A DNA stretch of 61,496 nucleotides, from the UHGV virus genome UHGV-1354897; one strand, written 5' to 3'. The notes below the pieces were generated by a model. It was given only the letters and a program-made list of their open reading frames with translations. It ran no database searches and was not told the DNA's origin. Position numbers and translations under genes: made by a program. The DNA comes from a virus. Shown piece after piece: positions 27,686-28,054 of this stretch; the first letter of the stretch is position 1, and each line of letters opens with the position of its first letter.

Positions 27686-28054
27686 TTACATATCTTTCAT
27701 TTTTTGAAGAGCGCAAGTACAAGCTGCGGCAAGATCAGTCAACTCTTTCATGATCCCTGCGAGGTCGCCTTCTTTCTTACACTCCATTAATTCGCGGTAT
27801 TCCATTTCAACAATGGACATCATACCGCCGGGCTTGTCGTGGTACGCCGCCCACGTATGCGGAGGTTCTTCCATCCGGTCAAGAACATTTGACATAGCTG
27901 CCATATGTTCATGATCTCGAGCATAAGAGTGAGCATGTTTATATTCCTCTTTCTCATGTTCATGGTGGTGCTCGCCTACGCTAATGCGAGGTAAAGCAAC
28001 CTTAGGCAATTTGACCCGTGGTATTCCCATCGTTGCGATTTTAATGTGGCTCAT
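27686..28054 (-). CDS. His-rich protein, possibly an all-alpha NTP pyrophosphohydrolase (MazG/HisE-like)
   Basis: His-rich segment EHHHEHEKEEYKHAHSYARDHEH; C-terminal EMEYRELMECKKEGDLAGIMKELTDLAAA loosely resembles the MazG motif. Confidence 0.35.
   Translation of the reverse strand: MSHIKIATMGIPRVKLPKVALPRISVGEHHHEHEKEEYKHAHSYARDHEHMAAMSNVLDRMEEPPHTWAAYHDKPGGMMSIVEMEYRELMECKKEGDLAGIMKELTDLAAACTCALQKMKDM

What the first reader, a model, noticed from the sequence alone, without database searches (positions are those of the whole stretch)
27686..28054. His-rich small protein with a possible MazG-like C-terminus in the late operon
A dense histidine cluster (HHHEHEKEEYKHAHSYARDHEH) suggests metal binding. 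The C-terminal helix pair loosely matches all-alpha NTP pyrophosphohydrolase motifs. A nucleotide-hydrolysing enzyme expressed late could degrade host signalling nucleotides or alarmones.
Basis: inference. Interest (0 to 1): 0.45.

Follow-up and report, generated by a model that had tools for sequence, protein, structure and literature searches.

The report
Small His-rich MazG-like phage protein
This is a real 122-residue phage protein with a histidine-rich tail on a miniature MazG-type metal-binding domain, and it is the second gene of a widespread, dispensable four-gene phage cassette whose function is unknown.

Summary
The ORF at 27686-28054 (-) is real. It is the orthologue of gp22 of Escherichia phage CAjan (Seuratvirus). 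Residues 29-50 hold 8 histidines.

Residues about 46-122 fold confidently into helices. [quoted passage not shown] The four metal ligands E85-x-x-E88 and E104-x-x-D107 are invariant in close relatives. GenBank already labels some orthologues "putative pyrophosphatase".

The alarmone or signal-degrading role has no support. The gene is the second member of a co-linear four-gene cassette, A-B-C-D:
- A is a glycine-zipper coiled-coil protein.
- B is this protein.
- C is a beta-rich protein with no known fold.
- D is a small protein.

The cassette occurs in Queuovirinae, Drexlerviridae, Eiauvirus, a Yersinia myovirus and gut or rumen phages, usually just after the lateral tail-fibre gene. It is dispensable: about 61-kb genomes exist with B deleted. 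Family-wide, D107 is usually His.

The most likely role is a metal-dependent (pyro)phosphohydrolase or metal-binding subunit serving this accessory cassette. No catalysis has been shown.

The parts
27686..28054 (-). Gene B: CDS of the 122-aa His-rich MazG-like protein (CAjan gp22 orthologue), stop codon included
   Evidence: ORF list. It matches PHROG 9157 at 8.9e-60. There are 41 homologues and 146 clusters in the representative library.
27974..28054 (-). Residues 1-27: basic N-terminal peptide (MSHIKIATMGIPRVKLPKVALPRISVG), moderately conserved in the enterobacterial-phage clade and predicted disordered
   Evidence: Alignment A1. The AF2 model has pLDDT below 50 for residues 1-45.
27905..27973 (-). 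Residues 28-50: His/Glu/Asp-rich tract with 8 His, variable in length between homologues
   Evidence: Sequence, alignment, statistics.
27689..27904 (-). Residues 51-122: AF0060/MazG-like helical domain (helices 47-62, 66-72, 77-95, 98-121)
27791..27802 (-). E85-Y-R-E88: first half of the metal-binding motif (EXXE)
   Evidence: Invariant in A1. E85 is present in 136/138 and E88 in 131/138 of the wider family. It aligns with EExxE of AF_0060 and of E. coli MazG.
27734..27745 (-). E104-L-T-D107: second half of the metal-binding motif (EXXD)
   Evidence: Invariant in A1. Family-wide, position 104 is E in 100 and N in 25 sequences; position 107 is H in 101, D in 33 and E in 4.
28126..28833 (-). Gene A of the cassette: 235-aa protein with an N-terminal glycine-zipper (GGDGFGG..IGGAIGGLIGSWIGNGWGG), a Q/N-rich helical region with CC/CCC clusters, and a PTPPTPPTGCC tail
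   Evidence: It matches PHROG 9288 at 8e-130. It sits upstream of B in 43/44 sources. Alignment A6. Its weak best PDB matches are influenza HA2 fusion-peptide regions.
27140..27670 (-). Gene C of the cassette: 176-aa beta-rich protein with no recognisable fold
26869..27153 (-). Gene D of the cassette: 94-aa protein whose start overlaps the end of C by 14 nt
   Evidence: It matches PHROG 7239 at 3.7e-47. It follows C in 42/44 sources.
28069..28104 (-). Hairpin plus U-tract between A and B (AAAGCGCC...GGGCGCUUUU), terminator-like
   Evidence: Sequence and fold. The same site is annotated as a rho-independent terminator in phage SA80RD. Its folding energy is not better than shuffles (z = -0.8).
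28969..28988 (-). Terminator-like hairpin between the tail-fibre gene and gene A
   Evidence: Scan. Annotated as a terminator in SA80RD.

Best explanation
gp22 is a phage-restricted, divergent member of the all-alpha NTP pyrophosphohydrolase superfamily (MazG / HisE / dimeric dUTPase / AF0060). A disordered N-terminal peptide and a His/Asp/Glu-rich tract (residues 1-50) precede a 72-residue helical domain. In that domain two antiparallel helices place E85, E88, E104 and D107 together as a divalent-metal site. By analogy with the superfamily, the domain would oligomerise, bind metal and a phosphate-bearing ligand, and cleave a pyrophosphate bond. It does not act alone. It is gene B of a conserved, horizontally mobile, dispensable four-gene accessory cassette (A-B-C-D), and its most constant partner is A, a glycine-zipper / coiled-coil, Cys-rich protein that looks membrane-active. 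Shown here: the gene, the His tract, the fold, conservation of the motif, the cassette, and its dispensability. Inferred: metal binding, oligomerisation, catalysis, and a functional link to A.

For: Sequence: the 138-sequence profile hits AF_0060 at E 3.8e-4 with EExxE and ExxD in register, and HisE 1yvw at E 0.12. Twelve members hit Pfam PRA-PH and six hit MazG, all weakly. hhalign against E. coli MazG aligns the catalytic C-terminal domain in register (P 0.06). SCOP curators place AF0060 in this superfamily as a family of its own (PMC2238974).

Motif: E85/E88/E104/D107 are invariant in 35 close relatives. The E88 to E104 spacing of 16 equals that of the M. tuberculosis MazG Mg ligands E122 to E138 (PMC10014863). 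Family-wide, E85 is 99%, E88 is 95%, and position 107 is always D, H or E.

Cassette: the A-B-C-D order is kept in 41-43 of 44 sources even where B is only about 33% identical. A full cassette forms a stand-alone island in Yersinia phage vB_YenM_12.

Dispensability: an A::C fusion lacking B occurs on 21 contigs, including about 61-kb genomes. A is split or truncated in several isolates.
Confidence: 0.55

Rival explanations
1. B is a non-catalytic metal-binding protein. It would act as a metallochaperone, metal or pH sensor, or assembly/holding chaperone for the Cys-rich, glycine-zipper protein A, re-using the MazG-like helical scaffold and a His-rich tail.
For: His-rich N-terminal tracts recur in distant family members. 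His replaces Asp at position 107 in 101/138 members, and E104 is N in 25. This fits a transition-metal site better than a Mg-NTP site. A, the window's gp25 and some C-like neighbours are rich in CC/CCC motifs. The A-B pairing is the most constant part of the cassette. Triphosphate-binding basic residues are not conserved family-wide.
Against: The window's own clade keeps the complete catalytic-type EXXE/EXXD set without exception. P65, T67, W68 and Y71 form a near-invariant loop that aligns with the GFDW element of E. coli MazG, which looks like a ligand pocket. His tracts are absent from most of the family. No interaction data exist.
Confidence: 0.25
2. B is a free-standing late enzyme that degrades host signalling nucleotides or alarmones (ppGpp, cyclic oligonucleotides) or sanitises the nucleotide pool.
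For: The MazG-type fold and metal motif are present. Members of the superfamily hydrolyse NTPs (PMC10014863). The cassette behaves like an accessory, moron-like unit, and that is where counter-defence genes often sit.
Against: Strict co-linearity with A, C and D across very distant phages argues against a stand-alone function. There is no hit to PADLOC, NCBIfam or any characterised family. The D-to-H change is dominant family-wide. The gene lies among tail genes rather than early or nucleotide-metabolism genes in most phages.
Confidence: 0.12
3. B is a virion or tail-fibre assembly component, either structural or a dedicated chaperone of the lateral tail fibre.
For: In most phages the cassette lies directly after a lateral tail-fibre gene carrying the Peptidase_S74 chaperone domain, and in gut podovirus-like phages it lies between tail fibres and tail tubular proteins.
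Against: Genomes lacking B are abundant and apparently viable. A is often broken in isolates. In Yersinia phage vB_YenM_12 and in L047 the cassette is far from tail-fibre genes. Terminator-like hairpins separate it from the fibre gene. S74 fibres fold with their own intramolecular chaperone (established knowledge).
Confidence: 0.08

Closest known systems
AF_0060 of Archaeoglobus fulgidus (PDB 2p06; SCOP 'AF0060-like' family of all-alpha NTP pyrophosphohydrolases)
   Different: Identity is only 17%. AF_0060 is archaeal, has no His-rich tail, and has no known function either. Its tetrameric assembly and distinct active-site architecture (PMC2238974) could not be tested for gp22. gp22 has M84 where AF_0060 and MazG have the first Glu of EExxE.
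MazG / HisE (PRA-PH) nucleotide pyrophosphohydrolases (Pfam PF03819, PF01503)
   Same: All-alpha core. Four acidic metal ligands with the same spacing as the M. tuberculosis MazG residues E119/E122/E138/D141. In-register alignment to the catalytic domain of E. coli MazG, including the W of GFDW. Weak Pfam hits in 18 family members.
   Different: All scores are below the Pfam thresholds. There is no helix after the EXXD helix. Asp is replaced by His in most of the family. There are no family-wide conserved basic residues. The family is phage-only: the only hits in 185,579 reference genomes are on MAG contigs of 3-40 kb.
Small phage MazG-like proteins (for example mycobacteriophage and cyanophage MazG)
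   Same: Short single-domain phage proteins of the same fold class appear among the BFVD structural neighbours.
   Different: The matches are not significant (E 0.3-1.4). Those proteins are not known to sit in an A-B-C-D cassette or to carry His-rich tails (own knowledge, not tested here).
His-rich tails of metallochaperones (HypB, UreE, SlyD, Hpn type)
   Same: A dense, disordered His/acidic tract attached to a folded domain.
   Different: This is a resemblance of composition only and comes from my own knowledge. There is no homology, no nickel- or zinc-enzyme context, and the tract is absent from most family members.

Membership tests
All-alpha NTP pyrophosphohydrolase superfamily (MazG/HisE/dimeric dUTPase/AF0060) | All-alpha core superimposable on solved members | tested here: met
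   [not shown]
All-alpha NTP pyrophosphohydrolase superfamily (MazG/HisE/dimeric dUTPase/AF0060) | EXXE ... EXXD metal-ligand motif on two adjacent helices | tested here: met
   E85-x-x-E88 and E104-x-x-D107 are invariant in 35 close relatives and in register with AF_0060 and E. coli MazG. In the wider family position 107 is H in 101, D in 33 and E in 4 sequences.
All-alpha NTP pyrophosphohydrolase superfamily (MazG/HisE/dimeric dUTPase/AF0060) | Statistically significant sequence relationship to a known member | tested here: inconclusive
   The family profile hits 2p06 at E 3.8e-4 and 1yvw at E 0.12. hhalign against E. coli MazG gives P 0.06. The single sequence and the close-clade profile find no member.
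All-alpha NTP pyrophosphohydrolase superfamily (MazG/HisE/dimeric dUTPase/AF0060) | Basic residues that bind the triphosphate | tested here: inconclusive
   R60, K93, K103 and K118 are conserved in the close clade but not across the family. Their equivalence to catalytic Lys/Arg of MazG or dUTPases was not established.
All-alpha NTP pyrophosphohydrolase superfamily (MazG/HisE/dimeric dUTPase/AF0060) | Dimeric or tetrameric assembly and Mg-dependent hydrolysis of NTP to NMP + PPi | not testable with these tools
   Only monomer prediction was available, and no biochemistry.
Pfam PRA-PH (PF01503) / MazG (PF03819) | Score at or above the family's gathering threshold | tested here: not met
   PRA-PH scores 15.9 bits against a cut-off of 21.3, E 0.018. 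Among 138 relatives the best MazG hit is E 3.4e-4 and the best PRA-PH hit is E 5.7e-3.
Known anti-phage defence or counter-defence protein families (PADLOC-DB) | Profile match to a catalogued family | tested here: not met
   There are no hits for A, B, C, D or gp25 at E up to 1.
Conserved A-B-C-D phage cassette (defined here) | B flanked upstream by the Gly-zipper protein A and downstream by C and D, all on the same strand | tested here: met
   In the window, A is 28126-28833, B is 27686-28054, C is 27140-27670 and D is 26869-27153, all on the minus strand. The same order is found in 41-43 of 44 sources.

The most novel reading that the evidence does not exclude
A-B-C-D is an undescribed, horizontally mobile accessory system of tailed phages. 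In it, a MazG-like metal enzyme or sensor (B, often His-tailed) controls or matures a membrane-active protein (A) built like a class-I viral fusion protein, with a fusion-peptide-like glycine zipper followed by a coiled coil. The system could serve superinfection exclusion, envelope remodelling or counter-defence, with C having a new fold.
Probability: 0.3. Interest if true: 0.7.

Novelty: new variant of a known kind. Interest (0 to 1): 0.45.

Why it matters
Taken alone, the protein is a modest addition: a divergent, phage-only branch of the MazG/HisE superfamily. Some annotators already label it "putative pyrophosphatase".

What matters more is the context. A four-gene cassette is shared by at least five unrelated groups of tailed phages. 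These include much-used E. coli model collections (BASEL Seuratvirus, Nonagvirus and Drexlerviridae phages) and uncultured gut and rumen phages. None of its four genes has a described function. It is often lost or broken. It contains a protein that looks membrane-fusogenic and one with no recognisable fold.

The cassette is dispensable in phages that can be manipulated genetically. That makes its function directly testable, and it may reveal a new host-interaction mechanism.

Tried and rejected
- PDB sequence searches: the single sequence found nothing. The close-clade profile returned only chance hits to EBP1/PA2G4.
- NCBIfam and PADLOC gave no hits for any cassette protein.
- The Foldseek afdb50 library was unavailable. 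BFVD gave one true homologue plus weak MazG-like neighbours only.
- The search for related loci with the 138-sequence alignment failed for lack of a conserved stretch. Sub-alignments A1 and A3 were used instead.
It was redone with database homologues.
- Literature: papers on Seuratvirus, BASEL, KanT1 and the phiHS phages do not mention this gene or the cassette.
- A spanin role for A was rejected because L003 carries its own Rz-like protein next to its holin and endolysin.
- An essential tail-fibre chaperone role was rejected because of the natural B deletions and the stand-alone cassette.
- A role in 7-deazaguanine DNA modification was rejected because Drexlerviridae and other unmodified phages carry the cassette.
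- The sigma-70 scan found no convincing promoter upstream of A.

Full report
**What the window is**

The region is 96-98% identical to Seuratvirus phages (Queuovirinae) such as ECP2304, CAjan and SeppeHuegi. The finding corresponds to CAjan gp22 (AVU36_gp22, "hypothetical protein") and to SeppeHuegi bas24_0025. The BASEL annotators labelled the latter "putative pyrophosphatase". The same label is used in GottfriedDienst and JLBYU09. The BASEL paper does not discuss the gene.

**Observation**

The ORF 27686..28054 (-) encodes 122 residues and has a GAGG ribosome-binding site. Residues 29-50 contain 8 His in 22 positions, with a chance probability of about 1e-8. The protein matches PHROG 9157 (unknown function) end to end at 8.9e-60. 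It has 41 homologues in the 5.8-billion-protein collection and 146 clusters at 50% identity in an exhaustive HMM search.

**Anatomy of the protein**

In 35 close relatives the N-terminal 25 residues are moderately conserved. The H/D/E-rich tract varies in length and sequence. The C-terminal 70 residues are highly conserved, with R60, P65, G77, I81-Y86, E88-M90, K93, E104, L105 and D107-C112 invariant.

AlphaFold2 gives pLDDT below 50 for residues 1-45 and 88-97 for most of 51-120. The helices are 47-62, 66-72, 77-95 and 98-121. E85/E88 and E104/D107 sit at i, i+3 on the two long antiparallel helices, at matching distances from the connecting turn. They should therefore face each other. This follows from helix geometry; I could not inspect the coordinates.

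**Fold and family**

- Independently, an HMM of 138 family representatives hits AF_0060 at E 3.8e-4. The family's M-E-x-x-E-L aligns on AF_0060's E-E-M-D-E-L, and E-L-x-(H/D)-L aligns on E-L-L-D-V. HisE 1yvw follows at E 0.12.
- SCOP's curators place AF0060 in the all-alpha NTP pyrophosphohydrolase superfamily. They give it a family of its own, with a distinct subunit fold, a tetrameric unit and a distinct active site, while it shares the metal-binding motif (PMC2238974).
- The four ligands and their spacing equal those of M. tuberculosis MazG, E119/E122/E138/D141 (PMC10014863).
- hhalign against E. coli MazG aligns the catalytic C-terminal domain in register. This includes the family's near-invariant PxTW on MazG's GFDW, but the support is weak (P 0.06).
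- Pfam hits stay below threshold: PRA-PH scores 15.9 against 21.3 bits for gp22, and 12 PRA-PH and 6 MazG weak hits occur among 138 relatives.

I conclude that superfamily membership is probable and that the protein lies closest to the AF0060-like branch. It does not meet the membership thresholds of the MazG or PRA-PH Pfam families.

**Departures from canonical MazG**

Across the 138 representatives, P65 (135), W68 (137), M84 (131), E85 (136), E88 (131) and A111 (133) are nearly invariant. E104 is E in 100 and N in 25. Position 107 is H in 101, D in 33 and E in 4. The metal-ligand character of all four positions is kept, but the window's EXXD form is the minority. There is no helix after the EXXD helix, and no basic residue is conserved family-wide.

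His-rich tracts (at least 5 His in 20 residues) occur in 32 of the 138, and at least 3 His in 57. They are a recurrent but optional feature.

The family appears to be restricted to phages. Scans of 185,579 reference genomes found only five weak matches, all on MAG contigs of 3-40 kb from rumen or gut bins.

**The cassette**

Distant homologues (about 33% identity) in gut-metagenome phages showed the same neighbours as in the window. I built HMMs for the four neighbouring proteins and searched all ORFs of 44 sources. These comprised the window, GenBank phages, IMG/VR loci and metagenome contigs.

- A, a Gly-zipper/coiled-coil protein of about 220-250 aa, was found in 43 sources. B was found in 44, C (about 150-195 aa) in 41 and D (65-94 aa) in 42.
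- They are always in the order A-B-C-D on one strand and tightly packed.
- PHROG assignments agree across clades: 9288 for A and 8329 for C.
- In the window the genes are A 28126-28833, B 27686-28054, C 27140-27670 and D 26869-27153.
- The cassette occurs in Queuovirinae, Drexlerviridae (Hanrivervirus, Tlsvirus), Eiauvirus, Sashavirus-type phages and podovirus-like gut or rumen phages that carry giant polyvalent proteins.

**Position and autonomy of the cassette**

In most of these phages the cassette lies directly downstream of a lateral tail-fibre gene with a Peptidase_S74 domain. In some gut phages it lies upstream of tail tubular proteins.

It is nevertheless autonomous. In Yersinia myovirus vB_YenM_12 the complete cassette is a plus-strand island between minus-strand genes, near the terminase and early-type genes. 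In L047 it follows the 7-deazaguanine genes. Terminator-like hairpins flank A in the window and are annotated as terminators in phage SA80RD.

**Dispensability**

The cassette is dispensable:
- An in-frame A::C fusion that removes all of B is present on 21 contigs, including about 61-kb genomes at up to 163x coverage.
- A is split or truncated in SeppeHuegi, JakobBernoulli, VogelGryff, WildeMaa and others.
- T5-like Salmonella phages retain only a pseudogenised A.

**The partners**

- A has an N-terminal GGFGG..IGGL..GS.W.GNGWGG glycine zipper, then a Q/N-rich helical region with CC/CCC clusters. Its best PDB matches are influenza HA2 fusion-peptide regions. These are weak (E about 0.01) and probably driven by composition.
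- No Pfam, NCBIfam or PADLOC family matches A, C, D or gp25.
- No paper in the library describes the cassette.

**Interpretation**

The idea is not new, given the existing GenBank labels. The functional part, late degradation of alarmones or signalling nucleotides, has no support and fits poorly with the obligatory genetic linkage to A, C and D.

My best explanation is that B is the metal-binding subunit of this accessory cassette and possibly a pyrophosphate-cleaving one. The main rival is a non-catalytic metal-binding or chaperone role toward the Cys-rich A protein. That rival is favoured by the dominant Asp-to-His change and by the His-rich tails. An essential tail-fibre assembly role is unlikely because B-less genomes are common.

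**Novelty**

This is a new variant of a known kind: a minimal AF0060/MazG-like domain, often His-tailed, embedded in a previously undescribed four-gene phage cassette. Interest is moderate for the protein alone and higher for the cassette.

Noticed in passing
window 28126-28833 (-): Gene A (CAjan gp21 orthologue) has a glycine-zipper N-terminus followed by a Q/N-rich helical region with CCC/CC clusters and a PTPPTPPTGCC tail. A family profile's best PDB matches are influenza HA2 fusion-peptide regions (E about 0.01). The match is weak and probably compositional, but the layout resembles a class-I fusion protein.
   Followed up: partly
L052 3001-3672, L053, L054 (protein P0239): Natural in-frame A::C fusion genes delete the end of A, all of B and the start of C at an IER(Q/P) microhomology. 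They occur on 21 contigs, including about 61-kb phage genomes.
   Followed up: partly
protein P0053 (metagenome): A second deletion variant fuses the first ~29 residues of A directly to residues ~78-122 of B.
   Followed up: no
[not shown]
   Followed up: partly
window 26654-26857 (-): A 67-aa Cys-rich ORF (gp25 orthologue: MCGNTNRCCLG...AACNCK...) lies after D and ends at a bidirectional terminator-like hairpin (26623-26647). It is not part of the conserved cassette. Cys-rich PPFFPYGCTPC motifs recur in cassette neighbours of L046.
   Followed up: no
protein P0057 (1468 aa, metagenome): A long repetitive fibre-like protein matches profile positions 37-68 of the B family 16 times (E 1.9e-18). 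Its repeat unit IKERLDNIDSSWDYYYDK resembles B's first helix plus PxTW..Y.DK loop.
   Followed up: no
window 29006-30661 (-) and 30941-33076 (-): The tail-fibre ORF next to the cassette is 551 aa with a Peptidase_S74 domain. The CAjan and SeppeHuegi lateral tail fibre is annotated at about 1027 aa. A separate 711-aa ORF lies upstream, so the fibre locus differs in this phage.
   Followed up: no
L048 3794-4408 (Salmonella phage polluks, T5-like): Only a pseudogenised remnant of gene A, with an in-frame stop, follows the lateral tail-fibre gene. B, C and D are absent.
   Followed up: partly
L049 3824-5528 (Yersinia phage vB_YenM_12): The complete A-B-C-D cassette is a stand-alone island on the opposite strand to all its neighbours. 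Its B protein lacks the PxTW loop and has E at position 107.
   Followed up: partly
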